DNA of 63,581 nucleotides, counting the filler, from Collodictyon triciliatum (taxonomy: Eukaryota), in the NCBI GenBank assembly GCA_043381765.1. It is 9 parts of 9 records of this genome, joined end to end, with 100 filler letters (N's around TTAATTAATTAA, not from the genome) between each part and the next. Parts side by side here need not be neighbours in the genome. Positions count along the whole stretch, not along the records: positions 7,365 to 14,626 come from JBHJMP010003984.1; positions 14,727 to 21,985 come from JBHJMP010003985.1; positions 22,086 to 29,344 come from JBHJMP010003986.1; positions 29,445 to 36,700 come from JBHJMP010003987.1; positions 36,801 to 44,055 come from JBHJMP010003988.1; positions 44,156 to 51,410 come from JBHJMP010003990.1; positions 51,511 to 58,762 come from JBHJMP010003991.1; positions 58,863 to 63,581 come from JBHJMP010004049.1; 1 more part is not named here. One strand, 5' to 3'. The first letter of the stretch is position 1; every line of letters starts with the position of its first letter. Positions 9,055 to 63,451 of this stretch are shown piece after piece. The position numbers and the translations under genes are program-made. The notes beneath the pieces are model-generated. The model had not been told where the DNA came from and did not search any database. It saw nothing but the letters and a program-made list of their open reading frames with translations.

Positions 9055-10312
9055 ATGCCAGCTATGAAACCGACGTCTGGAATGATTGCACTTATGTATT
9101 TGTTTGCCTTGGTTAGCCTCTTCCAAGGTACAAAGGCGCATCTCCAAAGGAACGTCATGGCAGAAGAGAAAGTCGAACAACTCGTCTGGGATCAAGTAAG
9201 CGTCGACAGTCTAAAACACTTGAACTTTTATTTTGTGACAAATGTATAACAAAAGTTGAAGAAGTTGAAAAGTTGAAAGAAAATAAGGAAAATATACCGG
9301 ATAATACGGAAGGAACATAAGCTCTTGAAGTCCAGAATAAACTCAACTGCAGAGTTAAATCAGTCCCTTGCGAGGGCATTAGACTCATTTAATGGGTCTT
9401 TCTTCTGATATTATACATTCCCAACACCCTTAGTTGAAAGGTGGTGTCCCTGTCCCCATCTTTGTCAAATTCCCTGGAACCACCGAGGTCGACATGTCTG
9501 GTAAGTTTGAGGGGGATTGATTGTTGTATTACCTCACGTCTCCTTCATTTTCTCGCCCTGGCCCTGCGGTTTTCTCTGTTATTTTACCATATCCCTATAA
9601 AACTACTCTCCCACTCGAACCACAAATTTAGTTTGTAAACATCTAACAACACCAACTGCGATGTTTCTTCTCAGAATCAATTTTTTTCTATTCATCTAAT
9701 TCTATATTCTTGTTAGGTTTCACTGGACCAGAGTCTCAGCGTGGACAATATGTCTATGAGTGGAGAAACAAACAGGTATGTGGATATCTGATTGAAAAAT
9801 CGTAAACTGTCGTTTTTTTTTTTTTTTTTGTATGGCCATTTGAGTGTTTCTGCTTTATCAATTAAGAGAGCGAGATGATGTTGATTACTTTGTGTATAAT
9901 TGTGTATTTATGTAACTAGTTGCAAGAGCTATCCAAAGAGGTCACCGCTTTTCTAGATGCGAAAGGGGTTCAGTACCGCACCATGTACATCGAACCTCAG
10001 GTTTTTATTCTACTGCTTATATTCCAAATAGAACCGTTCTCAAGTACGAGTCGACACTACCAATACATTTATCGCCTTCTCATGTCTTTTGCCAGTATGT
10101 TTGCATCAGAATAACACTGGGTCGAATATTCCTCGCTACACTTTGAATCGAATAAAGGGAAAAAAAAAAAAACACTGGGTCGAATATTAATGCTTGGATT
10201 TTATCTTTTACAAAAGGTTTACATCTTTGAAGCCTCCGAGGAGCTTGTTCGTGAATTAGCAGCCCGCAGCGACGTGTATCGCATTATGGGGGAGAGGTCT
10301 TTCAGAATCTAG
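9055..10312 (+). CDS. 147-aa secreted protein resembling an isolated S8 subtilase propeptide (I9-like)
   Basis: Five GT-AG exons (9055-9195, 9434-9500, 9717-9775, 9920-10000, 10217-10312) are in frame. A signal peptide is followed by KVEQLVWDQL..VPIFVKF..RGQYVYE..EVTAFLDAKGVQYRTMYI..SEELVRELAARSDVYRI, recalled as the prodomain pattern of bacillopeptidase-F-like bacterial S8 proteases. TAG follows directly. Confidence 0.75.
10113..10188 (+). mobile_element. Micro-retroposon insertion with perfect 18-bp TSD
   Basis: AACACTGGGTCGAATATT (10113-10130 and 10171-10188) flanks CCTCGCTACACTTTGAATCGAATAAAGGG+A11; intronic. Confidence 0.88.
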
Positions 10313-10494
10313 GGCAACTCTGAAGAAACAAGACGCATCACACTTCAGAAGATTAAAAAAGAACCTCTTGCAACACTGGCTGTTTTGTTTCCGGAACTTT
10401 TTTTGGCTTTTTTTTTTTTGTAAAAAAATAATTGCAGGTGGAAGATAAGCTACAGCCAAGGAGAGTTTTTGGAACGTGGGTGTTACATAAAAGA

Positions 10495-11199
10495 NNNNNN
10501 NNNNNNNNNNNNNNNNNNNNNNNNNNNNNNNNNNNNNNNNNNNNNNNNNNNNNNNNNNNNNNNNNNNNNNNNNNNNNNNNNNNNNNNNNNNNNNNNNNNN
10601 NNNNNNNNNNNNNNNNNNNNNNNNNNNNNNNNNNNNNNNNNNNNNNNNNNNNNNNNNNNNNNNNNNNNNNNNNNNNNNNNNNNNNNNNNNNNNNNNNNNN
10701 NNNNNNNNNNNNNNNNNNNNNNNNNNNNNNNNNNNNNNNNNNNNNNNNNNNNNNNNNNNNNNNNNNNNNNNNNNNNNNNNNNNNNNNNNNNNNNNNNNNN
10801 NNNNNNNNNNNNNNNNNNNNNNNNNNNNNNNNNNNNNNNNNNNNNNNNNNNNNNNNNNNNNNNNNNNNNNNNNNNNNNNNNNNNNNNNNNNNNNNNNNNN
10901 NNNNNNNNNNNNNNNNNNNNNNNNNNNNNNNNNNNNNNNNNNNNNNNNNNNNNNNNNNNNNNNNNNNNNNNNNNNNNNNNNNNNNNNNNNNNNNNNNNNN
11001 NNNNNNNNNNNNNNNNNNNNNNNNNNNNNNNNNNNNNNNNNNNNNNNNNNNNNNNNNNNNNNNNNNNNNNNNNNNNNNNNNNNNNNNNNNNNNNNNNNNN
11101 NNNNNNNNNNNNNNNNNNNNNNNNNNNNNNNNNNNNNNNNNNNNNNNNNNNNNNNNNNNNNNNNNNNNNNNNNNNNNNNNNNNNNNNNNNNNNNNNNNN
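10495..11199. other. Intra-scaffold assembly gap (705 N)
   Basis: Run of N without the linker motif. Confidence 0.99.
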
Positions 11200-11423
11200 G
11201 ACCGTTCCAATCAGATGGAAAATGTGGCACCGCAAGGCGAATCAAAATGAGAGCAGATTGAAAGAGAAAGAAAAGGAGGAAAAAGTGAAAAAGAAGGCAA
11301 GAAAAAAGAATCCACCAGCATGAGGACATGAGAGACAACGAAAGACACGCAAGCCTCCTTTGCAGAGCAGCAGTAAATGGGCAGCTCGTCTTCTATCCGA
11401 GTCTCTCGCACATGCTCCACGCC

Positions 11424-12221
11424 CTAGGCATTGGTGTGGGCATCCGGGGCATCGGTCATGTACTTGTCCAGCTGGCCCTCAAGCGTCCTCTCGCTCACAT
11501 GCTTCCGTCCGTATCCGCCGCGCCCACGCCCGCCTCGTCCTCGACCTCGTCCACGGCCTCTGCCGCGTCCACGCGAGCCGCGTTCATTGCTCGCCTCGCC
11601 CTCGACCGGTGCCATTTGCCGTTTGTCTTGAAGGTTGCCCGTTCGTCGCTGCGATGTGTTTGTCGCCTTCTGCGCGCGCCGGGCTTCGGTTCTCGGATTG
11701 CCCTGTGGTGGGGAAGCCGGAGGGAAGTTTAGTCGTCATTCTCGTCTCTCCCTTTCTGTTTGTTTGTTTGTTTGTTTGTTTTTGTTTCTCATAGTCCACT
11801 TGTTGAGAGGTATCATGCTGGATCAACGAGGCAAAACCGCGTTGGTTCAAACACACGCTTCTTTGGACTCGTTGAGGCGGCGGCTCACCTTTGCGTTTCC
11901 TTGTGGCGCCGAAGTTGAAGCAGCCTTGAGTTGGGTGAAGCGCTCGTTGAGGGTCAAGCCGGTTGCCTTCACAGTTGGGCGCGAGTCGGCAAACTTTGCT
12001 GTTCGGACGGTTTGGCCTCGGCCTCTGCCCCTGCGGCGGCCGCGTTGCGTTTCGGAAGGGTTGGCAGCAAAAGGCTGTGTGTGGGTGTGTGTTTTTTTTT
12101 TTTATTTAGTTTTTTTTTGGTTTTGTAAAGAGGCATTCTCTGCGTTTTTGATTGAGCTGCCACAGGCAGATTGTCAGTCGAATCATAAGCGGATGAGCCT
12201 TACTGTATTTGGGTCGCTCAT
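11424..12221 (-). CDS. CHTOP: Chromatin target of PRMT1 / Friend of PRMT1 homolog, 160 aa
   Basis: Exons 12221-12204, 12074-11889 and 11702-11424. Contains TLNERFTQL (CHTOP N-terminal motif), an RG/RGG-rich tract and the C-terminal FoP-type motif SERTLEGQLDKYM. Confidence 0.8.
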
Positions 12222-27104: not shown

Positions 27105-27263
<159 letters not shown>

Positions 27264-27328
27264 GTTGCATTTTCCCTTGCAATTGAGTATCAATTAAGAA
27301 GGTGATTTATAAATTCCATTATTGCCAT

Positions 27329-29196: not shown

Positions 29197-29235
<39 letters not shown>

Positions 29236-29269
29236 ACACTATATATTTTCTCTCTCTCTGTGAGAGGTT

Positions 29270-29344
<75 letters not shown>

Positions 29345-29444: not shown

Positions 29445-29698
29445 AAAAAAAAAAAAAAAAAACAAAAAAACAAAAAAACAAAAAAAAACAAAAAAACAAA
29501 AAAACAAAAAAAAAACAAAAACACAAAAACAAAAACACAAAACACAGGAACAACCAGACATATGAAATGGATTGATAGCGCTTTGTGCCAAATGAGCAAA
29601 TAACATATCATACACACATACACATATATACATCAAATAAATCATTTCCTTATCTTGTCACTTACTGTAACATATTTACATAATCCATTGTTTTGCAG

Positions 29699-37700: not shown

Positions 37701-40700
37701 CTATAATCTTCTAAAATATTTTCTGGTGCCATTATCCTCTTCATCTTCTCCCAAAAAATCATCAAACCCCCCGTCAAGTACTTGAATCGAAGTATACTTT
37801 CGCTTGGACTATCGAAAAATATTAGTTTAGTGGTGAGATATCTCACTTTATTTCTCTCTCTGAAAATTAATGATTCACCTCATACCTCCACCACCTCGTG
37901 CGAGTTGAGAGGGAGAATAAAAATAAAAATAACTCACCTCACACGAACCGTCAAAGGTCTCGATAGAGGCAGTTTCTTATCCCAATACGGGGGGTAAGAA
38001 GATATATTAGTAGATATATTTTGAACACACACGAATATTCAAACGAACTAGCAGTAGAAAAATCTTTGGGCCTATCAATATCTCATCTACCTGATTCATC
38101 ATCTCCAGTGCTTTGGACTAAAAGTTCTTGTAATTCAAACGTTCCCATCAAGAGATTCTCATGAAGAAACCCACAGAATATATCCAAACCACAGGGGCAA
38201 CTGATTTCATATTTGGGTACCTCAAAATCTGTATCTGATGATATGAACAAAGCGCCGATGAGCGCACTCGTTATGCTTTTGTGCGAGTGAAGCTCATCAG
38301 AGTCTTTCATGCTTGAGAGAAACCTTTTCATTTTTTGTCTCTTGCTATCTCCTGAAATAGTGGATTTTGGTCCCTTCTCAGATTTAGAATGGCATTCATC
38401 GGCTACAAGCTCAGAAAAATTTGATTTTTCCAACATTTTTCTAAAAGATCTCTTATGAATCGACAGAATTCTTGATTTGTGAAGCATAGACTCGTCAAAG
38501 TCAGGAAATATGCAATACAAATGATTACTAACAACCAGTTTTGTTACTGAATCACCAAGAATAATCATTTGTTCATAAGAAAACTGTATGGGAGGACTAT
38601 CAGGGAATGAAATACTCCTCCATGTTAGGTAATCAGAATACTGCAGTGCCTAGTGGAAATTATCAGTTAATATCGTAATCATCACGGTTTAAAAGGAATG
38701 AGTAAGGAAGTGCATTTTTTTTTTTAAAAAAAGTTCTATTCTCAGTTGTTCTAGTCCAAGTAATTCTTACACATAGGATGAGTCCAATGGAAGGTAAATC
38801 GAAGGGGAAAATTGAGGAGATGAAGTCTATTACTTCGGGAAATTTTGATCCTGGCATTGAGTTGATCATATCAAATGCAAGGAGTTAAAGAAATACTTAC
38901 AATATGGATATGTTATCCATTTATCAAAGCAAGAAGTTTATTTAAAATCATGACCCACTGCATTCATCTTCTTCATGAAGGAAGTGTGAAAATGTTTGAC
39001 AGCTCAATAAATTATATGGGTTACAGGTACGCTGGTTCAATATATATTCGCTGCAAAAGTCGTGAGATTTTAAAAACCCCTGATCAAGAAATATACACCC
39101 TGAATAATTTAGATGATTAAGCTCTGAATTGAGATATGTGTGACATGCATAAACTTGAAGCGAATCCATGATCTGATTCGGTTAACTCAACTCATCATGA
39201 GTAATTGAAGGCTACATGAGCAATTATAGCCCATGAAGTATCATACATATTATGATTGTCTTACCTATGAAGCTTTCTAAAGCATCTCCGCTTAATTTTT
39301 TGATACCTGTTTTATCCTTTTCGTTACTAAGAATAACTTTATCCAAGTTCAGTTGTTGGGACACTTGTTGAAGATTCTGTATTTTTCAGATAAAGAGGAG
39401 GTATATATCTTAATAATTGTATAAACATGGGGTGATTCTCATCAAATTGTGATGATAAAAAATACTTTGAATAAATTGATGGTTATCGCAAAAATCATTT
39501 GGTTGAAGGATGAATAAATACCTTGTTGTTTACAACCAACGACCTTTTTTGAAACAATTTTGAGAGATTATAATTCCGATTTGAATGTAATAATGATACG
39601 ATTACAGATAAATCTAAAACGCCATCCCCTAGAAACTCAAGGCGTTGATTACTATAATCTGAAGACTTAAATATTCGATCATGCGTTATATCGCTGAAAG
39701 CTGAGGCATAATTCGACGTAGTTAATGCCTTATGAAAGAGCAAACTGTTAATAGCTGTTAATAACTGATAAAGTGGTTTCAAGACTTTTCAAAATGTAAT
39801 ATGAAGATTATCATTAGTCATTCTTCTTTTTTCTTTTGCAAGATATGGAGAAAGTATATGGCGATGGAGCTATTGAGTTTTACCTGCCTTAGCAATAGCC
39901 TATTTCGTATTTTAATTTCGACAAAGTCTTCCAATTTAGTTACATTTTCGAAAAAATAACATTCATCTTTCAATATAGCACATAGCTTTGAAAGTAAAAA
40001 CGAATAGTGTGACACCTCCGTTGAAAAATTAGTCAATACCAAAAATTCGATGGGAGTTGAACATATTCCATCGTAGGCCAAATTTTCTGGGTTATCTTTA
40101 AATGAACAGAGCTAATAATGAAAAGCAACATGTCAATAACCTTTTATTGGATGATTTACTTCAAAATATCAGATAGAAAGGGTGATGGTGACGGTGGCGA
40201 AGGTGATGGGGGTATGAAACAAAATAAACCTTTTCATCCCAACTTCGAAGAAAAGAACAATTAGGCAAGGGAATGAGAGTAGAAATGGGTTGGTGTTCAT
40301 CTACAATCAGAGGACAGTATGAATCCTGGCCGTCTTGGTTTTCGATATAGTCAACCAAGTAACTTATTCTATCGAGAGGCCTCCAAAGATTGTGGACATT
40401 GAAAATTGAGTATGCATTTGATTTCTTTAAAACACTGACAATTCTGCCAGTATCCAATTCAGAAATATTCCACCCAAAGTTTGGTTCAGGAAAGCCTCGA
40501 TTGCTACAAGAAATTTTTTGAGAAGGATTGAACGTATTAAACCCTTTCTCTTCCATTTCCAGTAGCCTCATGATTCTCTGCTCTATCAAAAGAGGTGAAG
40601 CAAGAGGAAAATTTTCTCTGACTATTTTTTGGTGAAGAAGCTCGATGAATGATTTCTTGACATCTTCAAAGCCAACGATATCTCCTATGTAATCTTCTAA

Positions 40701-42966
40701 ATCTATGGGATCTGCAAATTTCTTTTCATAAGGAATGGGAATGCGAATTTGGAGGTTCATCAATACATCACTAAATGTATAGTTTTGATTCATCATGCCG
40801 TATTTTGGAAGAATAAAACAAAACATAGATTCGTATTGGTCGACTAAATTCAAGTAAGAAGGAAGGGCGAAATGAAGAAAAAAATGAAAAGAAAGTCTCA
40901 ACTTTCGCCTCATGTATTCATCGAAAGTAATTTCACCACTCCTTTTCAAGGAGACCATTATGTTTTTTTCATTATGATTAATCTCAAAGACCGGAATATT
41001 CAGCGGGATTGGAGAGAGTATCACAAATCCCTGAAATCTGCTCCCCATTTTTGAATGCAAGGAGCATGGCTTGTATGGTGGATCTAGCTGTATATGATGA
41101 ATATACATAGTTATGGACACATCCGGGGAAAGCGTTTCAACCTGATTTAATCTTCTAGTATCTTTAATCGATACGGTCGATTCCAATAAATCAGAGATGT
41201 ACGTATCTTTCTCAAATGGTATTGCGTCAAAGTGTAATTTCGGAAGATCTCTTATAACATGACCTCGATCCAAAGTAAGGAATGGATATCGAGTGAGCAG
41301 GTACTGACACGCCGCCAGAGCGACTGCTTTCTGAGAGGTTTTTTTTCTTTGATAGGACTCAGGGATGCATATACGAATAGAACCCTCGGTAAGAGGGATC
41401 AATATCGAGGGACAGAATCGTGGTGCATTACCGGATGAAACTTGCTTAATATCGTATATTGGATGCAATGAATTGTTTACTTTACCAATTCTTCTTACTG
41501 GAGTATCTTGAAGCAATTTGTGCGATGATAGCTGACTGTAAATTTTTATTAAAATCATGGGTATCATATTTAGTACATTCGTGTTGATTCCCACAGTACC
41601 GATGCTGATGATGTCCTCATTTTCTGAGTCATGAATTTGCATATCATGTATATCTGGATTCTCATCAGCAGAATCAGAAACACGATGCCTTCGCGGGTCA
41701 TTGTCGAATTCATAGTTGAGCTTACCACCTTGATCATCGTACCCGCGCAAAGATGAATGTATCTTAACGTCGCACGGGATTTCATCCCATTCGAGAGGGT
41801 TAAAATCATGCGAAGAAGGCAGTGTTCCATCTGACATTTTGAAGAAATGCTGACAAAGAGCAAGATACATATAACCTTTGGCACTTTCTTTGTCAGGGGA
41901 CTGAAGAGTGGTCTCCAAACTAATGGAGCGGTCTGAGAAATATATTTCACAGAAGCATGTGAATCGTAGACCCTCGCTAGTCATACATTTCTTTATGTGG
42001 ATTGGAAAAGGCAGTTGTTGCTGGGAATCTGGTGAATTTGAATAGGAACGCAGTAGAATACCCTCCTCAGCGAGTGTGTTAGCCCATCGGCGTAGAGTGC
42101 CCTCAGCCAACGTGTGTAAGTAATATTCTTCGTTGGTGGATCTAGTAGCGAGTTTGCAGTTTAACGCCGAAGGCTGACCTTGCCATTCGTTTGGAGAGCC
42201 ACTCCTTCCCTCGCTTCCACTCGAAACCTTTCCTGCGTCAACCACTTTAAAACTCGGCGAAGAGCTTAACACAGACTTATCCAAAAGACACTGACGGGCA
42301 TCTGGGTAATGATCGTATATGTGCTTGCATGCTATGCGGAAGGCCTGGAAAAAAGCGTGCTGAAGCGTCGGACTGTTTTTGCGCAGTGATAATATGATAG
42401 GCGCCCCACGCAGAGGCAGGGTCACAGAGACCTGAAAAGTTGCTGCGCCTGTGGTTTCCCGTATTTCAATCAGTCGAAGGGGACCTGAGAGGTCATGTTG
42501 CGGCACTCGCTCCAGAAGGTTCAGCGAGTTCAGCATCCTGATCATCTGGTAGAATCCTTCGGCCAGCACAGCAAACTCCTTGTTGTGGGACACTTGATCA
42601 TAGACCCAGGCCTCCGACACCTCCACCAGCCCGCAATATCCTGACTGGGCAGCGCGCTGCGTCAGCTTTTTCGAGGGCACCATAATTTTGATAATGTAGG
42701 CTTTGCCTAGTTCACTTGGGATAAGCTTCCAGAAGAGCGTCTGGAAAAGATAGCTCCTCTCGCTCGCCCCTACGTTTCCAAGCCCCTGTTGCCAGCACGA
42801 AAAAAAATTATAATTTCCAGATTTATTCTAGAGATGGTGGAACGCGTTTTAAGGTTTTATAAAGACGCGGCGGTTCGCATGTTCGACAGGGTTGTTTTAC
42901 AAATGCAGAAGCGGCGCATTAAACCGCTATGTGTGGTGGCGCTGGCGACGCTGCAAAGAAGGTCAT
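37701..42966 (-). CDS. Helicase-less Dicer-like protein: dsRBD/DUF283-like repeats, degenerate PAZ, RNase IIIa, degenerate RNase IIIb (start uncertain)
   Basis: RNase IIIa LLLRQ|ALT..NQRLEFLGDG..VNNK|NL..KLSGDALESFI|GCIFLDQG; RNase IIIb LILC|ALQ..YEQMIILGDS..KSITSALIGALF; PAZ-like DEHQP and connector PIEF..LLSKL. Last exon ends RKYFRRL*. The frame extends upstream of 42683 to an acceptor near 42787; first exon tentative (ATG 42966). Confidence 0.85.
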
Positions 42967-44025: not shown

Positions 44026-44055
44026 GTAAGCTTCTCGCCCTGCAACCACACACCC

Positions 44056-44155
44056 NNNNNNNNNNNNNNNNNNNNNNNNNNNNNNNNNNNNNNNNNNNNT
44101 TAATTAATTAANNNNNNNNNNNNNNNNNNNNNNNNNNNNNNNNNNNNNNNNNNNN
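44056..44155. other. Artificial scaffold linker
   Basis: N44-TTAATTAATTAA-N44. Confidence 0.99.
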
Positions 44156-44336
44156 ATAAATAATAATAATAAATAATAATAATAAATAATAATAATAAAT
44201 AATAATAATAAATAATAATAATAAATAATAATAAATAATAATAAATAATAATAATAAATTAATAAATAAATTAATAAATAAAAGACTCACTTTACAAAAT
44301 TGAAAGGAAGAATAAAAAAAAAAATAAAAGACTCAC

Positions 44337-46874
44337 TTTCCATCGCAAACGTCTAAATGCTCGTGAATTAAAAAGCTTACATACGAGTACCTGGAAATTT
44401 AGCGTTTATATTTTCAATGCGAAATAATATGGCATTACATAATTTATTATTATTTTAATGAATTCTACACTCTTTCCAGAACTCTATATTTTTTTCCTTT
44501 ATTCGATTCAAAGTTTTCAGAACTCTATATAAAAATATTACATCATCTTGCGAGACTCTTCGTCGGTGTAAAATAAATCTGTGAACATGTCAATATCATC
44601 CATACTTAAACCGTGCCGAGTCAAGGAAAATGCATATGAAATAGCGGATATCGATTCTGTTTTTTGGACAAATTATGTAATTAGTTACTTTGGATATAAT
44701 GAAAATGAGGACATAATTTACTATGTTAAATGAATATTAGTAAAGTAATATCCACGATATATACTTTTTTTTATTTATTTTCTTACCGACACAAAGGTGC
44801 AAACAAACATAATGGTTTATTTTTATATGAGTTATTTCCAAAAAAAAAAAACGTACTGGAGAAATTTGTCCAATAAGAATGTGTAAAATTAATTAAAGAT
44901 TCCATCGTAGCAAGAGACCCCATCGATTCTATTCTTTTTACAAAATTACCACTTCCGACATAACAAGATAAGTCTGCCAAGATTAGTCTCAGGCTTGATG
45001 GGTGCTCTATTTCCATTTATTTATTTTAGTGATTAGGTAAGTAAAATCTCGCGCATGAACAGTAAAAATTTGGATCGAATTAAAAAGAATAGTAAATATA
45101 AAATTATGCTTAAATTTTATACTTGATAGTGGGATATTTGCTATTTTATCAACAACTTCGAGAGGGACGTCTCTCGAGTGGTTCTGAAGATAAATTCGAG
45201 ATATATCGAATATTTCATCCTTTTGAAGTTCAGGAATCTTGGCGTACTCAAACTAGAACGTAAATTTGTGCTTGATAGAACCATACGAGAATAGCTTGTG
45301 AATTTCATAAGTTTGACAACCTTTATCATATATATTAGCAATACAAACCAAGTCACTGTATTCTAGCGATGATGCAATTAAATGTACATTGGGAGGAAGT
45401 TTTTCCGGTACCCATTCGTACTTTTGAGTTGGTTGAATGGTTCGTGGTTCAATCTTGATCATATCGATATCATCGATGACGAAAAAGAATGACAGCCAAC
45501 TGCGAATTAATAAAAAATATTTCGTTACTTCCAATTAACAATTATTTTTTTTTTGCTTACAGGTATCCATGGTGATTATTTTGTTTTCTGGATTGCTAAC
45601 CTATATTTTGTACCCATGGTATCGATTATAAAGCGAATGCTCTTTTCTGAGATACCCTTATCTATGATGTTCAATATTTTGACACAAAGAATGAACGAAT
45701 TTTCCATCTTCAAGGGAGAACCAATAATCATAATACATGAAAGTAAACTGAATACATAGAGGAAAATTATACATATCTACTCAATACGAGTAAAGCGTTC
45801 TATGTAAAAAATAGGAGAAACAAAATCAAAACGAGTTCTATATTTACATAATATTACCAAAATCACTTAATTCATAAACACTATGATATGAAAGGTGTAG
45901 GCGCAGGCTTTCAATGACTTTTTCAAAAAAGAAACTAATAGACACTCCTGTTAGGCCAGCTTACGTTTTTTTTTTTTTCATTTATCGATTATTTTTTTAA
46001 AAGATTTCCTTCTCACCTGAAAGACGATATTTTCGGCGTGACATTACATGTAAAAAATGGCAGAAATATATTCCTAGAGTTTTGATCTATTCCCAGAGTC
46101 TCATTCAACCGTGATAAGAGTGTCGACTTTCCAGAGCCTATATTAACATTTTCATAGAATTATTATATCTCCGTGATTAGATCTTCTCCGTATTAATTCT
46201 TATATGATAAAGTACAGCCAAACCTTTAATTCCATATAAAAGAACAGGTTTATGAAACGGGTATGACGATGATGCCTATTTTTTTTTTTGATAAATTTCT
46301 TAAATTTCCAATATGTACTGAATACTGCACAGCATAACGCCATGTAAAAATAATATATGACGTCAATATATACAAAAAGAAATACTCTGATTTTCATTTT
46401 TAGAAAATCGATAATTGTGCTCATTCCCGCAATTGGGGCACTGCCCTTTAGGGTGTTCATCTATGTGACATATTATTTGATTATTTTGAGGTAAATTTTA
46501 TTTCTTTTAATATCTCTTTCATTTTCTGATATGCAAATAGCAGAATGAAGAATAAAGAATAAAGAATAAAGAATGAGAGTTAAGCAATAATAATGCTATG
46601 GTATTAGTTCTTCCCAAAAAATAGCAAAGATATGATTAGATATAAAGAAATACCGCCCGGTAGTCTTCATGATCTAACTTTATAGCAGCAAGAATTGTCT
46701 CTGTAATCGTGTCTCCAAAGTTGACGTCACCAGAGTATTTTCCGAATCCAGATACCATTGAAAAGAATCGGCCCAAGTGAGTCTGATTTTTTTTTGATTT
46801 CAGAAAACATAAAAGAAAAGAAGGTGGATGCCAACATCTCCACCATCTTGCACAAAATTGAAAGGAGGAATAAA

Positions 46875-46930
<56 letters not shown>

Positions 46931-49900
46931 AAAGAAAAGAAGATAGATAATGGGTGACCCAAATACCTCTTCAATTTTAATTTTCTCGTCCAGCAAGAAG
47001 AAATATCGAGAAACGCCACATCCTTTGTCAACGCAGCAACCTTGTACCTTATTTGTGAATGTGTAATTCGATTAAATGCTTTTTTTTTTATTAATGAAAA
47101 TGAAAAGCGTTATAGAAAGGTCAATTAGGTTCCAAACACAACATATACTATTTACATACTTACCAATGATTCATCAAGGGATGTTATATCTGTTTGAGAT
47201 GTTTCAAAAGCCCGCATATGCGTCGTGGTATTTCGTACTCTCTTAGAATCATGGTTAAGATGGCTGGCATCGCTAATATGAACAGTTCATGGGAACTCTT
47301 GTAAACAGTGATATGTTTTTTTTATTGAAGATTTTTATTTATTTATTTAATCTAGAAAATAAAAATACTGTTTGTCTAAAATGCAGACAAAGTAGTCAGC
47401 TTTCTTGGCCTTGGATATTATTTTTGATGGAATCTAGTGAACTGATATTAGCATATATACATAATTTATGGTGTAGTATTTTTTTTTAACTACGACTATC
47501 CTTACAATTATAGGGTCTAATTCTCGACCTCCCATAATTGTCCAGTTTGTGTCTATCATTACAATCTTAACTCCAATACCAGCAGCGTATTTTGACAATC
47601 TATACAAAGAAAGTATTTGAAGTTATGAATGATTATATACATATATACAAAATATACTGATTTTGTCATTACCTTGAAAATATTTTCTCTTTGAAGTGAT
47701 CAATTCGGTTAGAGTCCATGCTTCTGGGAAAGCGAATGTAGACACTCAAAGGCGAACCATAATTATCAACTTTTCGAGTAAATCGATGTTTCAGGGTTCC
47801 ATAATACAGAGGTAATGATTTGAAAAGATAGGGTGTTTTATCACCTACTGCGATTGTGTGCCCTTTGTCACAAATTCCATTATTTGTAAGTACGAATCTC
47901 TCAATAACTTCACAGGGACTGCAGAAAGACTCTCGGTCGCAATCAGGACAGACAAATCCATGGTTGGAGGGTGCAAATGGAGAATTTATACATTTGAAGA
48001 TAATATCGACTATACCAACACATGCTTTAATCGAGTCACAAAGGGGTTGGCGGATATAGAATGAAATGAAAGCAGTAAAATTAAAATTCCCTCTCCCAGG
48101 TGCCTATAATCAGGTTTGTTTGTGATTTAAGAAGACATGTTTTATTTGAGTATTTTTTTTTATAGACCACGAAAATATATACAGCATCATTTACTATATG
48201 AAGATGGAAGAAAAAAAACCCACTAATGTTGCCATTTTGGTTGAAAAATATATTCGTATTTGCTCCCCAAAATGAAACGTGTTATTTGAGCTATCATAAG
48301 ATACGTTTAGACTAAATGAATTATTAGCAATAAATTTGCACAAATCAAAGAAGTATTGAGGGCTTCCCTGGTAGAATTTTGTAAAGTATGATAAAACAGA
48401 AAAAATCGCTATCTGTGGAATATGATTTGTAAACACAATTTGGTAATCCAGCCTTGAGCTATGTGATTTTTCCATTACGTTGCTCTTGTCGGGATAATGA
48501 AAATGAGTTTTGCAAGATGAGAATGTTAGAATGTCTCCTAGACCAGGAACACTTAAAGAGAGGCCATTCTTTCTCATGAATAAGGTAACATCCCTAGATA
48601 ATCCACCGAGGAATCTTGTATGAACAGAGCTATTTTGATACTCGTGTTGCATTTTCAAGACATCAGTTATTCTATCTGACATTTTACCCTCCTCGATGAG
48701 GCATGATATTTTCCCTTTTGTCTGAAAATTTAAGCCTAGCAACACGTGTATCAGAATTCTCGGTTGGATACATACCAACTCACTGAAATAGCTTCCCTCT
48801 GCATTCCAATATATTAATCCAGCGTGATTTAAACAGGATACTACAGCGCGAGTATGTTCTGGTTTCATCCCATGATCGATTAAACAGTAATTGTATATTT
48901 GCTCAATAGGTATAAAGTATCCACATTCTGACTGAGCTCTTTGACACAGAGACTGCTTGATTCGCATATATTTTGACGATATTTCATTTTCGACCTGTTG
49001 GGTTTTGTCAAAGAACTTCTGTATGAATCTTACAACGACACTCACTTCATTATACGTCGATGTTGATAAAGTCACATATTCCACAAAATCAATCTGTTCT
49101 GAGTATATTTTAACAGTTTCTTTCATAGATTCAATAGATGGGTTCAGCATTTCAGAATTTATCATTCCAGAATGTAATCCAACTAAAACAATATTACTCT
49201 TATACCGCGTAAATGCAATGGCGCTCAGCCAGAAATGGAGCTCAGAGACCAGCTCACCCTTTTCTATATCTATTATAATAACAAATATTTTTGGAGAACT
49301 ATTGAAAATTCTAATACAGGCTTCAAAAGAGCTCAAGTCCTGAAATTCCCAGCCGGTGACTATTATAGACCTTTGGTTGGAGCCTGACAATATATAATCA
49401 CCTCTACAGGCATATTCATCAGGTGGGAATATAAACGGATTATCACCATTTTTGTATGCTTTAGACTGAATTTTTTGAATGATGTTGGATTTCGGCGCTG
49501 ATGAGGGACCTGCGTAAATGACATGCCCTCCAAATGAATTCAATGCATTTCCAGTGATATCATCTTTTAAAAATGCCTTCAAAAATACTAGCCCGCGTTC
49601 AACAATATATGTTGGGGGGTATGAAATATTCTCGTAATCGAGTTGAAGAACAGTAAGCCCATCCATTCCTGATACAAATTCAGGTATACTGGTAATCTTG
49701 GAAGGTTATTAGAAAGCTGCATGAGACGATGTCGGACGAAGGTGAAAATATCAACTTTATTAAATTAAGCCATGAATAAGAAAAAAATGCAAATAAATTA
49801 ATTTATATAACTCACAGGATTTTGCTGCATATATACTTCACTTATGCTCTGCAGCTGAATGAGAATACGCGGAACTTGTGATAGCTACCATATTATTAGC

Positions 49901-51188: not shown

Positions 51189-51410
51189 CTTGCGAACAAA
51201 AATGAGCGAGTAAATCGAATAAGGATATTAAAATTTAAGGGGATATATAACTAAAAGGTAATAATAAGAGTACATGGCACAACAGTTAAATACCACTATT
51301 ACAGCATAATAAAAGAATAAAAAAGAATAAAAAGAATAAAAAAGAATAAAAAAGAATAAAAAAGAATAAAAAAGAATAAAAAAGAATAAAAAAGAATAAA
51401 AAAGAATAAA

Positions 51411-51510
51411 NNNNNNNNNNNNNNNNNNNNNNNNNNNNNNNNNNNNNNNNNNNNTTAATTAATTAANNNNNNNNNNNNNNNNNNNNNNNNNNNNNNNNNN
51501 NNNNNNNNNN
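51411..51510. other. Artificial scaffold linker
   Basis: N44-TTAATTAATTAA-N44. Confidence 0.99.
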
Positions 51511-51675
51511 TCCATAAAATCCATAAAATCCATAAAATCCATAAAATCCATAAAATCCATAAAATCCATAAAATCCATAAAATCCATAAAATCCATAAAA
51601 TCCATAAAATCCATAAAATCCATAAAATCCATAAAATCCATAAAATCCATAAAATCCATAAAATCCATAAAATCC
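51511..51675 (+). repeat. (TCCATAAAA)n 9-mer tandem repeat at scaffold end
   Basis: Directly visible. Confidence 0.96.
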
Positions 51676-52418
51676 AATAAAGGAGAAGTAGAACACACGA
51701 ACATAGAATCTTTTCAATCCAAAGAAGGATATCTGAAAGGATTTTTTCGGTGAATTCGCTCAGAAGGGAAACGGATAATTTACTAATAAAATTCCATCAT
51801 ACCAAATAAGACATTTCCAGAACTGCTTACTAACCAAGTCTATTACGAAGTGTATTCGGCATTCCAGATATGTACACTGCTCTTTTTTTTTTTTGATCAC
51901 AACCACAAATCAGAGGTCGAGGAAATCATGGTGAAGATCGCATCAGCCAGCAAGAAAACTGTGTCTCGTCGAAGTTTTCCAGACTGCCGTAGATATCCCG
52001 AGTGCACAGAAACCCAACAAACTTGCGCCCGTCAGATGAGCCCGCACTGGTTTCCTCAAATCCACACATAAGCGCCACGACCTTTGCCTTCGCACTTTGA
52101 AGAAACACAGGAATCAGCTGAGGATGTGCCTTCCGCTCCAAAACGACACTCAGGCTGAGTCCAGAGTTTTCGAAAGCCTCTAGGTGCCGAGGACGTTGGC
52201 TGGGTTGCATAATCAAAGGAGCCCACCCGCAAATCAATTTGTTTGGGCCGAGACTTCTGGGCAGACTCTCGCGAATCATATAAAAACGAAAGACTATTTC
52301 TGCACTGACGCAACAGTAGACCACCGGAATACAACGAAAGGCGGCTGTTTCTGTGATATTTTGTTTTACTCTGAGGCTTCTCATTGACTCTCCTGATACT
52401 TTCACCACAGCAGGGCGG

Positions 52419-58400: not shown

Positions 58401-58619
58401 TATATATGTCTCTTTAGTTGACAAATACTTTCTCGCTTTGTCGAAGAGTCAAAGTCTCTACCGTCGCACAGTAGAGCATGGTGATAATCAGAGTCCATCA
58501 CACTCTTTACCTCTGCGCAGGTCTGGAATGAGCTATCTAATCTGCAGGTGCTGCTGTTTTCAAAGTTTGGTGAAACGTATCTCATTTACTTGCGGGACAA
58601 CCTCTTCCCTAGAATCGAG
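52419..58619 (+). CDS. XPOT: Exportin-T (tRNA exportin; Los1/PAUSED), 3'-truncated
   Basis: About 25 GT-AG exons. MDLDALQQAILCLFDPS..KQSAEAYCSQ, IKNKFAALIV..DYPE|RW, IDMFLRILNIIDEEIV, NTLI|KDTMR, YI|GWIEL, LVVKGMD, FYENVTRYNRFF, GIRHPSEKIRSR, SFMHRMVDTIG. Confidence 0.92.
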
Positions 58620-58762
58620 GTGGGTTGCTACATCAAAAATCAAATCAAAACAAATCAAAACAAATCAAAAATCAAAAATCAAAAATCAAAAATCAAAAAT
58701 CAAAAATCAAAAATCAAAAATCAAAAATCAAAAATCAAAAATCAAAAATCAAAAATCAAAAA

Positions 58763-58862
58763 NNNNNNNNNNNNNNNNNNNNNNNNNNNNNNNNNNNNNN
58801 NNNNNNTTAATTAATTAANNNNNNNNNNNNNNNNNNNNNNNNNNNNNNNNNNNNNNNNNNNN
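58763..58862. other. Artificial scaffold linker
   Basis: N44-TTAATTAATTAA-N44. Confidence 0.99.
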
Positions 58863-59073
58863 ACAAATACCGCGAAAAATGGGAAGCGAGATACTTGCGA
58901 GACTTTGAGCAGATGGAGAAATGGTTCTTTGGACTAGGAAAGGAAAAAGAAAAGACCATGTATCCTTCCTGTGCAAACCTGCACACTTTCAAACAAGGCA
59001 AAAAAAAAAAAAATTACAGGTTCACGAAGCCTTTTCAGAATTTATCTATTTCAGAACAAGGACTGGGGGATAG
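58863..59073 (+). CDS. 3' end of an unidentified gene
   Basis: Open frame from the scaffold start KYREKWEARYLRDFEQMEKWFFGLGKEKEKT, putative intron 58960-59054, terminal exon ITRTGG*; convergent with CCDC81. Confidence 0.45.
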
Positions 59074-59142
59074 GAGGCCAGAACACTTTCATTTTTTTTT
59101 TGTGCAATGGCGTGGTGGCGCATGTCAGAAGAGCCCGTTCGA

Positions 59143-62100
59143 CTACAACACATAGGCGGTTATCTCCCCTTTCTTTCGTCCGCGATGCGTTTGGGAATGA
59201 GCGAGCGCAGAAATGTTTCGTCCACACTCAATACATTGACTGTCGCAGCACTTCTTGGGTTCTATTTCTCCATGACCTGCATGTGTATGTGCCATTACAA
59301 AGATATCTTTTATCGGTGAATTGGGAAGTGTCAGTCATTACTTGGTTCAATTAACAAAGAAAATAAAGTCAATCTGCTTATGTTTAAATTGGAATCGAAA
59401 GGAATATTGTGCCTGTAAAAATTGTTTCTACGGGGATATGAGACTCCCAAGCCGGACGAGATGAAGCGAGCTTGTGAGACATCTGGTCTCTCCATGAATT
59501 CAACATACTGTCCCGGTGTGTAAGCTTTTGTTGCTTCTTCCGTGCCTCCTCCTGAGCTTGTTCCCTTCGATAAAGAAAAGAATTATCCGGGTTAATAATG
59601 GCATGAATTTGTTGTATCTCTCACGAAGGGAGGTAGCTTCGATCAATAGAAAAGATTCGGGTAAGTTTACCAGAAACATCATGCTTAATACAATCATTTT
59701 TTTTCCTTTATTCGATCCAAAGTGTAGCGAGGTTATGCATGCTTAATACAATCATAATGTGTGGTGTTTTTGTATAAATCCCTCTCAGAATTCAGACGTG
59801 GGTATATGTGGGCGAAATCATGACAAATTAATTGGCACAAACTTTCGCATTCTTTCAATTTCGCGTGCTTCGTTTTGAATAGTATTGGAGAGTAACTGTT
59901 GCTTTGTATTTTGCTTCATGCGAGCTTGCTCCATTTGCTTGTTTACATTATTGTAAGAATAGTATGATTACATTTGTAAAAATAAGTAGACAAAGTGAAA
60001 TAACGTTGAATTCATAATAAAAAAAATTATGCCCTCGAAAGGCTTACATGTTCCATTAATATCCGGGCATTCCTTCTGTCTTCTACCGAATCTTCTTCCC
60101 TTGCGAATAAGTTCCTTTCTTCAGGTATATCCGTGGTATTTCGTGTGGTTTTCCGGGAGGATATCTAGATATATTAGTTCAATGAAATTATTAGTAAAGT
60201 ATAGATGCAAAGAGTGTACTCGTAAATCGAAATGTTGCGGTACCTGTTCTCTCAAGACTTCTCTGTAAATCTCTTTCCTTCTGGCAACCTCTTCTTTTTC
60301 ACGGGCTTCGAGTTCACGAGCTCTACGGTTCTCACGGGGGTTAATTGATATACTCACTTCGCATTCAATACATACATACATACATACATACATACATACA
60401 TACATACATACATACATACATACATACATACATACATACATACATACATACATACATACATACATACATACACAAGACGAATGATTACCTCATCAAATCT
60501 ATGTTGATATCATCCCGCTCTCCTCGTAAATGCTCTTCTAGCTTTCTTCTGGCTTCGTTCTGCTCTATGATCTAATTTGTCATAGTCTCATGTGAGTATG
60601 ATGGTCAGAAAATTCTGATCAACCTTGCCTTCGATGAAAAATGCTTTCCGCACTTGGGCCTCTAATTCTCGAGCATACGCCTTTCTGGATTCTTTACGCG
60701 CAATTTCAGAGGCGATATGGTGTGGAACCTAGATTTCATGTCGCTTATGGTCAGTGCATAGGTTTAGCAAGTAGCTAAAATTGCAATTTACCTCTTCCAC
60801 AGGCAATCCTTCTCCACAGACTGGACCGGAGAGTTCCTAAACCCCAGGCATATGAGAAATAACTCACCCATTTATGATAGAAAGTGTTTAAAATGGAATG
60901 CAAGTTCTTTGAATCGAATAAACGAAAAAAATGGAATGAAAGTTCGCAGTAAAAGATCATAATGAGTAAGCAATACAAATTTGGATCGGTGAAGTTCTTT
61001 GTTGTATTCGTCGATTTCTCTTCTTAAATTTTGCTGGTGTATTTTCTCTTCCTTAATATTAAGATAGTATACCAATCCAAACATTAGTCATTTATTTGGA
61101 TCGATTTCTCCAGTGGATATTTTATCAAAAGGTTTCTTATTTTAATCCATTCAAAGTCCAAGAGGGCTAAGCCATACAGAGGGCTGTAAAAATTTCTATC
61201 GTTCATAAAATTAAATCTAGTTCGCTAGACTGTCGATTGTAGAAGAGAAAAGGTGTAGAACCTGTTCCCTTTGTTTGCTCAATTTATCCATCTCAATGAT
61301 TTGTCTCCCATATTGATAATCGTCGGCTGCTTTTCTGGATTCCTTATCATGTTGCTCCCAGTTTCGGTGCTTCCGAAAAGTGCAAAGGTCGCACACATTC
61401 TCTGCTTCTAAATATTTTAAATTAGTATGCTATCATACGTATTATTGTCGAATAAACTACTCAAGTAGATAGATAATCGTTTCATATGCGTATAAGATTG
61501 GATGTAATTTTAACTTGTTTTACTGATATAATCATGGCTTGCGTTAGGCGGTGTGTCTTGCGATGGCATGTGACTATAAATCGATGTACCAGCATAAACA
61601 ATATGTAAATTAAAGAGATATGCATATTGAACCTTCGAGATATTTATGCGATATGAAGTGTACTTTTCAACCGCAGAAATTACTTCGTTGTGAATCATCC
61701 TCGTCGTGTCAGATATCTCCGGTCCAACTTTTGCTTTGTCATCCTGACCCCCGGACTCCAATCTCACTGGCATCTCAGATTTTCTATTCCCGATATCCAA
61801 GGACTCTGTTTCAGCTACAGCCCCGCGTTTGGTGAGGTTATTTGCCTGTGCTTTGCAGGTCTCCTTTGGTTCCTTCCTTTGCAGGCTGGGTACTTTCGAA
61901 GCTGAAGAAGGTCTCTTGGATAACTTTGCGATATCTTGATTATCAGATCTTTGAGATTTAGAACACAGCGATACATCCCGGTGTCTTGGTATGGGGCTAT
62001 TCTGCCGTTGTAAAGTTCTGGCTATTGTCTCTGTATGTTGAGTTTGGTGGTTTTAGCGACGAGTATGAGTTTCTCTACGCGATATCAACTGAAAGGTAGG

Positions 62101-63451
62101 CCCAAAAATCAAATTACGGTGATGATTGAACCTAGATAACGTAAATACCTCTACTCAATTTTGAGGCTGCGGCAGGATATTGTGAATGTACATATGAATT
62201 ATCTCTAGCATTTCTCCGCATTGGGTCGGCACTTCTTGGTCGAGCTGGTTTCGAATCTGCTTTTCTGATTTTTGGTGTGGTAATTTCGTTCAGTCCATAG
62301 AAATGAAATAAAAGTTACCATGAAGTTAAAGGAATGAAATGGGCATGAGATTCAATTAACACAATTTTACTTTGGTGATGTCTTTGCCAAATCTAGGGGA
62401 CTTTTCACGGTGTGTGGATATGATGGATGCACACGTTGTAAGAAGGAAGGTTTGAATTTGGCTGTATATGCTCCATCCCAAATATTTAGGAAGCAAACTC
62501 CGAAGTCAATCTAAGTAAAAAAAAAAAACTTTAAGTATACCTTCCAGATTATTCTTCAAAATTTTGAAAGGTGCGCTCTTGGGCATGCATTAACTAATTA
62601 TGTTGAAAGTATTGATTTACAGGCTATATGTGCCTATATCTTCCTTTCTTGTGATGAATGTGACATTGGTATTAGAAAAAATCGAGATAATATGTGTCCC
62701 TGAGTGTTTTTTTTCCCTTCATTCGATTCAAAGTATGTGTCCCTGAGTGTAATGTTTTATCTGACCTGGACGCTCTGTCCTGAATTGGACGCTTTCCCCA
62801 TCGTCTGAATGAGAGAGTAGTAGCAAGCCTCGGTTACATCGCGTGGGAGCAAACATTGAATGGCAAACTTCCCCAGGTCGAGGTGACATGTAGGGATGTT
62901 GACTTAAGATTGAAAGGGTGGAAAATGAAATACAAATAATGATGATTAATCTTGTTCGAATTCATACGTAAGAAAGTATAGTTTTGATGTTTCCCCTCTT
63001 CGAATGAGATCCCGTAGTCTAAATATGGCAAACCTTCGTGTACTAGGGAGGCTTTTCTGATTCTGTGCAATGTTACAAAACTATCAGCGAGGAGAAGAAA
63101 AGGTGAGTGAGAACTTCTTGAAGGCTGTCGCGCAAGTTTCCAGCTGAATTTTCCGAACCGCGGTAATTCTACAGTCTGTAAGGATGATGAAATACGTGTT
63201 AGGCATCCAATATTTGTATTGTAACAGCTTCATTCGTGATAAGATAGCTATTTTAGTAACTAAATTGAGCAAGACTATGATACTTGTTGTAAATTACTTA
63301 TTGATGCACAAGGTAATGTATTAGGGTCATGACAATTATATCTGCATAATAACCAAAGTTTGATGTAAGACTGAGATCATTTGATGAATAAATAGACCTG
63401 TCCTTTGGACAGCTCAGCCTCGATGAAACGAAGAAGGTTATTCCAAACGAT
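59143..63451 (-). CDS. CCDC81: Centrosomal/ciliary protein CCDC81 homolog (HU-like N-terminal domains + coiled coil), 5'-partial
   Basis: IVWNNLLRFIEAELSKGQ|TVELPRFGKFSW..PFLLADSFVTLH, RDVTEACY..SVQ|IDFGVCFL..AKFKPSFL, central CDLCTFRKHRN, repeats YARELEAQ and YREVLREQ, terminal CCDSQCIECGR. Confidence 0.82.
59680..59755 (-). mobile_element. Micro-retroposon insertion with perfect 18-bp TSD
   Basis: CATGCTTAATACAATCAT (59680-59697 and 59738-59755) flanks the reverse complement of CATAACCTCGCTACACTTTGGATCGAATAAAGG+A7; intronic. Confidence 0.9.
60890..60945 (+). mobile_element. Micro-retroposon insertion with 18-bp TSD (1 mismatch)
   Basis: AAAATGGAATG(C/A)AAGTTC (60890-60907 and 60928-60945) flanks TTTGAATCGAATAAACGAAA; intronic. 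Confidence 0.82.
62691..62750 (-). mobile_element. Micro-retroposon insertion with perfect 17-bp TSD
   Basis: TATGTGTCCCTGAGTGT (62691-62707 and 62734-62750) flanks the reverse complement of CTTTGAATCGAATGAAGGG+A7; intronic. Confidence 0.9.

What the first reader, a model, noticed from the sequence alone, without database searches (positions are those of the whole stretch)
10113..62750. Family of ultra-short (20-40 nt) poly(A)-tailed insertions with 17-18 bp target-site duplications
Seen: five intronic insertions on three independent scaffolds (10113-10188 +, 44473-44530 -, 59680-59755 -, 60890-60945 +, 62691-62750 -). They share the 3'-anchored consensus CATAACCTCGCTACACTTTGAATCGAATAAAGG(G)An, differ in 5' extent, and each has its own 17-18 bp TSD. 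In element orientation every TSD starts at T|A (mostly TT|A). Weaker copies lie at 4736-4763, 7203-7225, 17709-17729 and 45070-45086. Established: an A-tail, AATAAA, 5' truncation, long variable TSDs and a TT/A target are hallmarks of target-primed reverse transcription by APE-type non-LTR retrotransposons. Inference: these are extreme 3' stubs of a LINE/SINE or of a tiny parasitic RNA, at roughly one per 10 kb and too short for repeat finders. Three copies stop at the same point, the 5' base of a possible CTTTG..TAAAG hairpin, which suggests systematic abortion of reverse transcription or a host restriction.
Basis: partly seen in the sequence, partly recalled or inferred. Interest (0 to 1): 0.8.

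Follow-up and report, generated by a model that had tools for sequence, protein, structure and literature searches.

The report
Tiny truncated LINE-tail insertions
The short A-tailed inserts are real: they are the last 18-33 bases of an L1-like jumping gene, pasted into new sites with 17-18-base target duplications. This is an ordinary process caught at an unusually early, and often identical, stopping point.

Summary
All five insertions are at the stated coordinates. Each has its own 17-18 bp target-site duplication (TSD), perfect in three and with one mismatch in two, an A-tail, and a T|A target. Three begin at the same base, CTTTG.

The source is now identified. A metagenome contig (L001) carries the same 34-nt tail, about 60 nt further of 3'UTR, and the C-terminal end of a LINE ORF2 with a zf-RVT zinc knuckle. 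Its full-length relatives have APE + RT and match human L1 ORF2p best. The inserts are therefore 5'-truncated LINE copies made by target-primed reverse transcription, not a separate tiny RNA.

The proposed hairpin is negligible (-0.3 kcal/mol, no better than shuffles). The window holds about 10 family-A stubs, all 33 nt or shorter, and no LINE body. A second LINE tail family also gives stubs. Two inserts lie in introns confirmed by spliced contigs. One is also present in a separate freshwater metagenome run.

The cause of the fixed stop at 18 nt is not resolved.

This scan already reported the same thing on at least eight other pieces of this genome, with the same reading. The kind is ordinary and the degree unusual, so interest is moderate to low.

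The parts
10113..10188 (+). A1: TSD 10113-10130 / 10171-10188 (18/18), LINE tail body 10131-10159 (29 nt), A-tail 10160-10170
   Evidence: aligns to L001 96-139 at 93%
44473..44530 (-). A2: TSD 44530-44514 / 44489-44473 (16/17), body 44513-44496 (18 nt, starts CTTTG), A-tail 44495-44490
   Evidence: 26/26 identical to L001 105-130
59680..59755 (-). A3: TSD 59755-59738 / 59697-59680 (18/18), body 59737-59705 (33 nt, longest copy in the window), A-tail 59704-59698
   Evidence: 41/42 identical to L001 104-145
60890..60944 (+). A4: TSD 60890-60906 / 60928-60944 (16/17), body 60907-60924 (18 nt, starts CTTTG), A-tail 60925-60927 (up to 7 A if the TSD's leading A's are counted). Lies in intron 60836-60975 of a minus-strand gene, antisense to it.
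   Evidence: intron from a spliced contig of run X1 (table 5)
62691..62750 (-). A5: TSD 62750-62734 / 62707-62691 (17/17), body 62733-62715 (19 nt, starts CTTTG, AATAAA changed to AATGAA), A-tail 62714-62708. Lies in intron 62511-62765, sense to the gene.
   Evidence: intron and the filled site in run X2 (tables 4, 5, 8)
21688..21747 (+).
4736..4763 (-). Copy of at least 22 nt (TACACTTTGAATAGAATAAAGG + A6), no TSD found
17706..17733 (-). Copy of about 14-15 nt (GAATCGAATAAAGGG + A6) in low-complexity DNA; TSD seed 12/14
7203..7225 (+). Diverged copy (CACTTGTATCGAATAAAGG + A4), no TSD found
45070..45086 (+). Possible old copy (TTGGATCGAATTAAAAA) with flanks about 12/15 alike
   Evidence: by eye; weakest of the set
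44276..44339 (+). Stub of a second LINE tail family (B): TSD 18/18, body 20 nt, A8. Shows that ultra-short stubs are not peculiar to family A.

Best explanation
The inserts are dead-on-arrival, extremely 5'-truncated copies of one L1-like, APE-type, poly(A)-ended LINE.

Proposed sequence of events:
1. The element's endonuclease nicks the target at T|A.
2. The freed 3' end primes on the RNA's A-tail.
3. Only the last 18-33 nt of the 3'UTR are copied.
4. A second nick 17-18 bp away and end-joining fix the stub between target duplications.

Shown here: the identity of the tail with a LINE 3'UTR, the TSDs, the target, the shortness, and the recurrent start at CTTTG.

Inferred, with my own odds of about 0.3: the stop at 18 nt marks the 5' edge of the terminal RNA segment held by the ORF2 protein. 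Copying that segment frees the protein and licenses second-strand nicking, which often outruns further cDNA synthesis. This is by analogy with R2, where bound 3'UTR RNA blocks second-strand nicking until it is copied. The short tails (A3-13) even in copies with perfect TSDs fit priming close to the 3'UTR/tail junction.
For: Identity of the source:
- L001 (minus strand) reads: ORF2 end with a CX2CX8HX4C knuckle, stop, about 95 nt of 3'UTR ending ...GGCATAACCTCGCTACACTTTGAATCGAATAAAGG, then A10.
- The ORF2 piece matches zf-RVT at E 1.5e-7, 32.4 bits against a cut-off of 27.5.
- A3 matches L001 at 41/42 positions and A2 at 26/26.
- In a library-wide HMMER search, 14 proteins scored E<=1e-3. The 4 that are 1226-1275 aa long all carry Exo_endo_phos + RVT_1 (4 of 4).
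- One of these, P0009, matches human L1 ORF2p at 3e-57 against 9e-24 for R2.

Insertion signature:
- TSDs are 17-18 bp in 5 of 5 inserts, and T is at -1 in 6 of 6.
- Microhomology at the 5' junction is 0-1 nt (read).

Length distribution:
- No shorter stub and no A-only insert with a clean TSD was found (0 of 22 rows).
- 3 of 5 copies start at one base (P about 0.006).
- Three further records in metagenome runs X3 and X4 carry the 18-nt tail + A-run in unrelated flanks without upstream LINE sequence (tables 7, 8).
- Family B also gives a 20-nt stub with an 18/18 TSD.

Reality of the inserts: the filled A5 site is seen in run X2 at >=99% identity.

R2 analogy: PMC13486585 (abstract and passages read).
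Against: - L001 comes from a metagenome, not from this assembly, and holds no RT or EN core. APE and RT are shown only in relatives that are about 30% identical over the C-terminal region.
- The excess of short over long copies may be inflated. This assembly is fragmented into contigs of about 7 kb, many ending in A-rich repeats, and long repeats would break or drop out of it.
- Nothing here tests the 'held segment' model. The hairpin that might define such a segment is not stable.
- With tails of 6-8 A, a fixed total cDNA length of about 25 nt cannot be told apart from a fixed sequence position. The sample is only 3-4 copies in this window.
Confidence: 0.85

Rival explanations
1. Same LINE and same TPRT, but the 18-nt class are complete copies of a shortened template. 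In this reading the LINE RNA is cut at, or trimmed 5'-to-3' down to, the CTTTG position, for example by small-RNA-guided slicing or by an exonuclease stopped by bound ORF2p. The RT then simply runs off the end.
For: - The exact shared 5' end, with full-length 17-18 bp TSDs and only 0-1 nt of microhomology. This resembles what Kojima 2010 reports for full-length rather than truncated human L1 (PMC2912911, passages read).
- Baldwin et al. argue that host cleavage of RNA or intermediates is a likelier cause of 5' truncation than poor processivity (PMC10830420, Discussion passage).
- The organism has a Dicer-like gene (RNase III domains at 38086-39788).
Against: - No RNA data on the LINE were available.
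- 4 of 5 junctions have 1 nt of possible microhomology, which does not separate the two models.
- Copies of 29 and 33 nt, and older ones of about 14-17 nt, show that the end is not always there.
Confidence: 0.3
2. A separate, tiny SINE-like retroposon or 'parasitic RNA' that only borrows the LINE's tail and has its own source genes.
For: The recurring length class of 18 nt + A-tail. SINEs typically share their partner LINE's 3' end (established knowledge).
Against: - 18 nt cannot hold a promoter.
- No Rfam family or tRNA-like part was found.
- The stubs carry no shared diagnostic change relative to the longer copies or to L001; differences are private.
- Copies of 29 and 33 nt continue into the LINE 3'UTR.
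Confidence: 0.04
3. Endonuclease-independent capture of LINE cDNA or RNA fragments during double-strand-break repair.
For: Very short retro-derived fillers are known at repaired breaks (PMC4516963, search listing and start of abstract only).
Against: Regular 17-18 bp TSDs in 5 of 5 inserts, T|A at the nick in 6 of 6, and A-tails in all. Break-repair capture typically gives deletions, no TSD and no tail (established knowledge; PMC1920257 seen in the listing only).
Confidence: 0.03
4. Artefact of amplification or assembly, such as chimeric junctions.
For: The assembly is fragmented.
Against: - The same A5 insertion is present in a contig of a different run (X2, >=99% identity).
- Other copies occur in runs X3 and X4 and on L001.
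- An artefact would not produce site-specific 17-18 bp duplications around one LINE tail.
Confidence: 0.01

Closest known systems
5'-truncated ('dead-on-arrival') L1 insertions of mammals
   Same: - Poly(A) tail and a TT|A-type target.
- TSD of similar length: the human full-length L1 peak is 14-16 bp (PMC2912911, passages).
- Truncation from the 5' end.
- A parent with an APE-RT-CCHC ORF2; relatives match human ORF2p best.
   Different: - Size. De novo human L1 insertions had a median of 712 bp (PMC11702581, passages) and are described as 'often a few hundred base pairs' (PMC10830420). Here all of about 10 family-A copies in the window are 33 nt or shorter.
- Three of the five clear copies end at one base.
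- Tails are very short (A3-13) even where the TSDs are perfect.
R2 retrotransposon: second-strand nicking licensed by copying of the bound 3'UTR RNA
   Same: Offers a mechanism in which the protein-held 3' RNA element sets when the second nick can occur (PMC13486585, abstract and passages). This would explain a truncation point at the edge of such an element.
   Different: - R2 has a restriction-like endonuclease, is site-specific for rDNA, and holds a structured pseudoknot.
- Here the enzyme is L1-like and the target is loose.
- No stable RNA structure is predicted here.
- This is an analogy only and was not tested.
Very small SINEs, for example Platy-1 (about 100 bp)
   Same: Short, A-tailed, TSD-flanked and mobilised by L1 machinery (PMC4864456, listing and start of abstract only).
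   Different: SINEs are copies of their own small RNA with a source gene. These stubs are 18-33 nt, have no promoter, and run continuously into the LINE's own 3'UTR.

Membership tests
APE-type, poly(A)-ended (L1-like) LINE, 5'-truncated copy | The insert is colinear with the 3' end of an element that encodes a non-LTR reverse transcriptase | tested here: met
   L001 reads zf-RVT-bearing ORF2 end + 3'UTR + the same tail. Caveat: the RT core itself lies off the 1157-nt contig, and L001 comes from a metagenome.
APE-type, poly(A)-ended (L1-like) LINE, 5'-truncated copy | A-tail at the 3' end, followed directly by the TSD | tested here: met
   5 of 5 inserts
APE-type, poly(A)-ended (L1-like) LINE, 5'-truncated copy | Site-specific target-site duplications of about 7-20 bp | tested here: met
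   17-18 bp in 5 of 5; perfect in 3, one mismatch in 2. The control scan gave 3 rows against 15.
APE-type, poly(A)-ended (L1-like) LINE, 5'-truncated copy | Nick site of TT|A type | tested here: met
   T at -1 in 6 of 6 and T at -2 in 4 of 6. Small sample in an AT-rich genome, and the A at +1 is partly forced by how the TSD is delimited.
APE-type, poly(A)-ended (L1-like) LINE, 5'-truncated copy | The parent encodes an APE endonuclease and an RT of the L1 clade | tested here: inconclusive
   Seen only in relatives about 30% identical over the C-terminal region: 4 of 4 long hits have Exo_endo_phos + RVT_1, and P0009 matches human L1 ORF2p best. No tree was built. The parent's own EN and RT were not recovered.
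APE-type, poly(A)-ended (L1-like) LINE, 5'-truncated copy | ORF1 present | not tested
   No sequence upstream of the ORF2 end was available.
SINE / autonomous small-RNA retroposon | Own promoter-bearing body (tRNA-, 7SL- or 5S-like) and its own source lineage | tested here: not met
   No Rfam or tRNA match in the window. The body is 18-33 nt and colinear with the LINE 3'UTR.
Stringent-type LINE tail with a 3' stem-loop that stalls or recruits the RT | A stable terminal hairpin | tested here: not met
   -0.3 kcal/mol for the 26-mer, with 79 of 200 shuffles at least as good. The full 3'UTR has z = 0.03. Conservation and covariation were not testable with one family.

The most novel reading that the evidence does not exclude
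In this protist, TPRT by L1-like LINEs is aborted systematically after about 25 nt of cDNA (18 nt of 3'UTR plus a short tail) at a fixed template position. The cause would be either that copying the protein-held terminal RNA segment triggers immediate second-strand nicking, or that a host activity cuts the template there. The genome would then carry thousands of invisible micro-insertions, and would offer a natural system in which the long-unexplained cause of LINE 5' truncation has a sharp, mappable end point.
Probability: 0.25. Interest if true: 0.6.

Novelty: new member of a known kind. Interest (0 to 1): 0.35.

Why it matters
Why LINE insertions are 5'-truncated is still unsettled. [quoted passage not shown] A family whose copies stop again and again at one base, 18 nt from the tail, would let that question be tested directly, with RNA-end mapping or an in vitro TPRT assay.

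There is also a practical point. Stubs of 25-45 bp at about one per 6-12 kb escape repeat masking. They sit in introns in both orientations, carry an AATAAA, and can mislead annotation or be mistaken for new motifs.

The kind of event itself is textbook, and this scan has already reported it repeatedly for this genome.

Tried and rejected
Searches that gave nothing or too little:
- No whole genome is held for this window, so no genome-wide census was possible.
- Exact scans for the 18-nt tail + A5 found 0 loci in genome contigs and 0 in viral contigs.
- The word-index protein search for longer relatives of the L001 ORF2 piece found none.
- The same search with P0003 gave one protein of 345 aa carrying zf-RVT only. 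The parent's RT and EN were therefore not recovered.
- No RT/APE Pfam match in any of 109 window ORFs of 90 aa or more.
- No tblastn hit better than E 0.25 for 14 LINE relatives against the window.
- blastn and tblastx of L001 against the window matched only its tail.

Sequencing runs:
- No RNA holder is listed. Run X1 is 'RNA?' only by the tool's guess.
I asked for the part beside it, as the tool proposed.
- No contig bridged an empty A4 or A5 site. Cover there was too thin to say anything about presence/absence polymorphism.

Ideas dropped:
- The hairpin idea is rejected on energy.
- Microhomology as the cause of the shared end is rejected: 0-1 nt, with different flanks.
- The TSD of the family-B copy at 6335 was not found.

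Literature. Searches turned up no description of fixed-point, tail-only LINE stubs. One search returned 0 papers, one search returned 1 irrelevant paper, and one search found no paper that joins the presumed organism group with retrotransposons. This covers only the held library.

Earlier notes. Look-ups by sequence and by words gave nothing.
Full report
**What the window is.** The 63,581 bases are nine contigs of about 7.26 kb (the last one cut at 4.7 kb), joined by N44-TTAATTAATTAA-N44 spacers, plus one internal gap at 10495-11199. The DNA is AT-rich and carries intron-bearing host genes: LRR, RNR small chain, RabGAP-TBC, RNase III, exportin. No whole genome is held for it. Earlier notes of this scan call the organism a freshwater protist.

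**Checking the observation.** In element orientation each reads TSD, LINE-tail body, A-run, TSD.

| Copy | Coordinates | TSD | Body | Tail |
|---|---|---|---|---|
| A1 | 10113-10188 (+) | 18/18 | 29 nt | A11-13 |
| A2 | 44473-44530 (-) | 16/17 | 18 nt | A6-7 |
| A3 | 59680-59755 (-) | 18/18 | 33 nt | A7-8 |
| A4 | 60890-60944 (+) | 16/17 | 18 nt | A3-7 |
| A5 | 62691-62750 (-) | 17/17 | 19 nt (GGG end) | A7-8 |

These values come, with the A2 boundary corrected. A2, A4 and A5 begin at the same C of CTTTG. In A2 and A5 the preceding A could belong to either the target or the element.

The pattern is far beyond chance:
- The 18-mer with up to 3 mismatches occurs 9 times against 0.15 expected.
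- A family-blind scan for A-runs flanked by near-identical 14-mers gave 15 rows against 3 in the reversed-sequence control. Seven rows are this family, two are a second LINE tail, four are tandem or low-complexity arrays, and two are LRR exon repeats.
- If five ends were spread evenly over 40 positions, three would coincide with P of about 0.006.

The weak copies are real matches to the tail, but only some show a TSD. It has 17-18 nt, a 16/18 TSD, and a 5' end at or one base from the shared start.

**What it is.** One scan of metagenome contigs for the 28-nt upstream part of the consensus found a single 1157-nt contig, L001. On its minus strand it has these features:
- An open frame with one frameshift that contains a CX2CX8HX4C knuckle.
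- An end of ...QLAITDFFPVLASPR, then a stop.
- About 95 nt of 3'UTR ending ...GGCATAACCTCGCTACACTTTGAATCGAATAAAGG, then A10.
- AT-rich flank after that.

The frame matches Pfam zf-RVT, 'zinc-binding in reverse transcriptase', at E 1.5e-7, above the curated cut-off. A3 matches L001 at 41 of 42 positions and A2 at 26 of 26.

A library-wide HMMER search with the 202-aa piece found 14 proteins at E<=1e-3. The four long ones (1226-1275 aa) all have Exo_endo_phos + RVT_1, and three of the four have a sub-threshold zf-RVT. One of them matches human L1 ORF2p at 3e-57, against 9e-24 for R2.

So the inserts are the extreme 3' end of an L1-like LINE's 3'UTR. The caveats are that L001 is not from this assembly, that its RT and EN core lies off the contig, and that no tree was built.

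**Length distribution in the window.**
- No window ORF of 90 aa or more has an RT or APE domain (0 of 109).
- No LINE relative hits the window by tblastn (best E 0.25).
- L001 matches the window only through its last 34 or so nt plus the tail.
- All of about 10 family-A copies therefore keep 33 nt or less.
- A scan that allowed bodies of 0-60 nt found no A-only insert and no stub under 18 nt with a clean TSD (0 of 22 rows, 14 of which were tandem arrays). The distribution is not a simple decay from zero.
- For scale, de novo human L1 insertions had a median of 712 bp (PMC11702581, passages).
- Caveat: in an assembly this fragmented, long repeat copies would break contigs or drop out, so the short-to-long ratio is biased.

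**A second family.** The window also holds tails of another LINE family, B:
- A 20-nt stub with A8 and an 18/18 TSD at 44276-44339.
- A 52-nt copy with a tail of about 50 A at 46811-46936.
- A variant at 37869-37941.
- A longer copy ending at 6366.

Ultra-short stubs are thus a habit of LINE insertion in this genome and not of one sequence.

**Independent reads.** Contigs of run X1 were laid on 60480-63470. They show ten joints, all with CT..AC ends, which is what spliced transcripts of a minus-strand gene would give. The tool's label 'RNA' for X1 is a guess, and the pieces are 90-99% alike.
- A4 lies in intron 60836-60975, antisense to the gene.
- A5 lies in intron 62511-62765, sense to the gene.
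- A 151-nt contig of a different run, X2 (>=99% alike), runs from unique flank through A5's 3' TSD and tail into the body, with one extra A in the tail. That insertion therefore exists outside this assembly.
- Two records of X3 and one of X4 carry the 18-nt tail + A-run in unrelated flanks that do not continue into LINE 3'UTR sequence. In the X4 record the flanks shown hold a duplication of about 16-17 nt that places the 5' end at the same C.
- No contig bridged an empty site.

**Mechanism.**

Shown:
- A T|A nick site (T at -1 in 6 of 6).
- A-tail priming.
- TSDs of 17-18 bp.
- 0-1 nt of microhomology at the 5' junction.

This is target-primed reverse transcription that ended very early.

CUUUG..UAAAG folds at -0.3 kcal/mol, no better than shuffles, and the whole 3'UTR has z = 0.03.

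Two explanations remain for the fixed stop:
- (a) The terminal segment of about 18 nt is the part of the RNA held by ORF2p. Copying it frees the protein and licenses second-strand nicking, which often outruns further synthesis. In R2, bound 3'UTR RNA blocks second-strand nicking until TPRT copies it (PMC13486585, abstract and passages). The short tails fit priming next to the junction.
- (b) The template itself ends there, after cleavage or trimming, and the RT runs off. Baldwin et al. favour host cleavage as the general cause of truncation (PMC10830420, passage).

I put each at about 0.3. This window cannot separate them. It also cannot separate a sequence-fixed stop from a ruler of about 25 nt, since the tails differ by only a base or two.

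**Comparison and novelty.** The closest known thing is the 5'-truncated L1 copy of mammals. The tail, target, TSD length and parent architecture are the same. The size differs by more than an order of magnitude, and the recurrent single-base end is not a described L1 feature in the papers I could search.

The LINE family itself appears undescribed, so this is a new member of a known kind. The fixed early stop is the only part that might prove to be more.

This scan has already reported the same phenomenon on at least eight other pieces of this genome, with the same reading. Two further notes describe the PIP-box-like ORF2 end that I also see on L001 and its relatives.

**Verdict.**
- Observation: confirmed.
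- Interpretation: right about TPRT and the LINE origin. Wrong or unsupported on the hairpin and the 'tiny RNA'.
- Interest: moderate to low (0.35).

Noticed in passing
window 44276-44339 (+), 46811-46936 (+), 37869-37941 (+), about 6200-6366 (+): Tails of a second LINE family (...ACAAAATTGAAAGGAAGAATAAA). There is a 20-nt stub with an 18/18 TSD, a 52-nt copy with a tail of about 50 A, a variant subfamily copy, and a longer copy with no TSD found.
   Followed up: partly
window 51311-51410, 58632-58762, 24294-24421, 29454-29514, 8241-8334, 14534-14626 / 14727-14803: A-rich microsatellites such as (AAAAAAGAAT)n, (AAAAATC)n, (AAAAACC)n and (AAAAAAAC)n, plus long poly(A). Several lie exactly at contig ends. 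They may be expanded retroposon tails, and they seem to be where the assembly breaks.
   Followed up: no
L001 205-260 (-); proteins P0002, P0007: The LINE ORF2 ends in a PIP-box-like motif: QLAITDFF on L001, QTAITDFF and QSVITNFF in relatives about 60% identical. Earlier notes of this scan reported the same motif.
   Followed up: partly
window 62715-62733 (-): The sense-oriented intronic copy A5 has AATGAA where the family has AATAAA. The antisense copy A4 keeps AATAAA. Loss of a premature poly(A) signal is one possible reading, but this is a single case.
   Followed up: no
window 38086-38649 and 39498-39788 (-), next to ORF 40164-42827 (-): Two RNase III domain exons (Dicer-like) lie beside an 888-aa open frame with no Pfam match.
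   Followed up: no
window 346-608 (-): Tandem repeats of about 125 nt, each comprising an LRR exon plus its intron, mimic TSD-flanked inserts in repeat scans.
   Followed up: no
window 13061-13999 (-): The ribonucleotide reductase small-chain gene is one long GC-rich open frame (GC 0.53 in 12001-14000) within a genome of about 33% GC.
   Followed up: no
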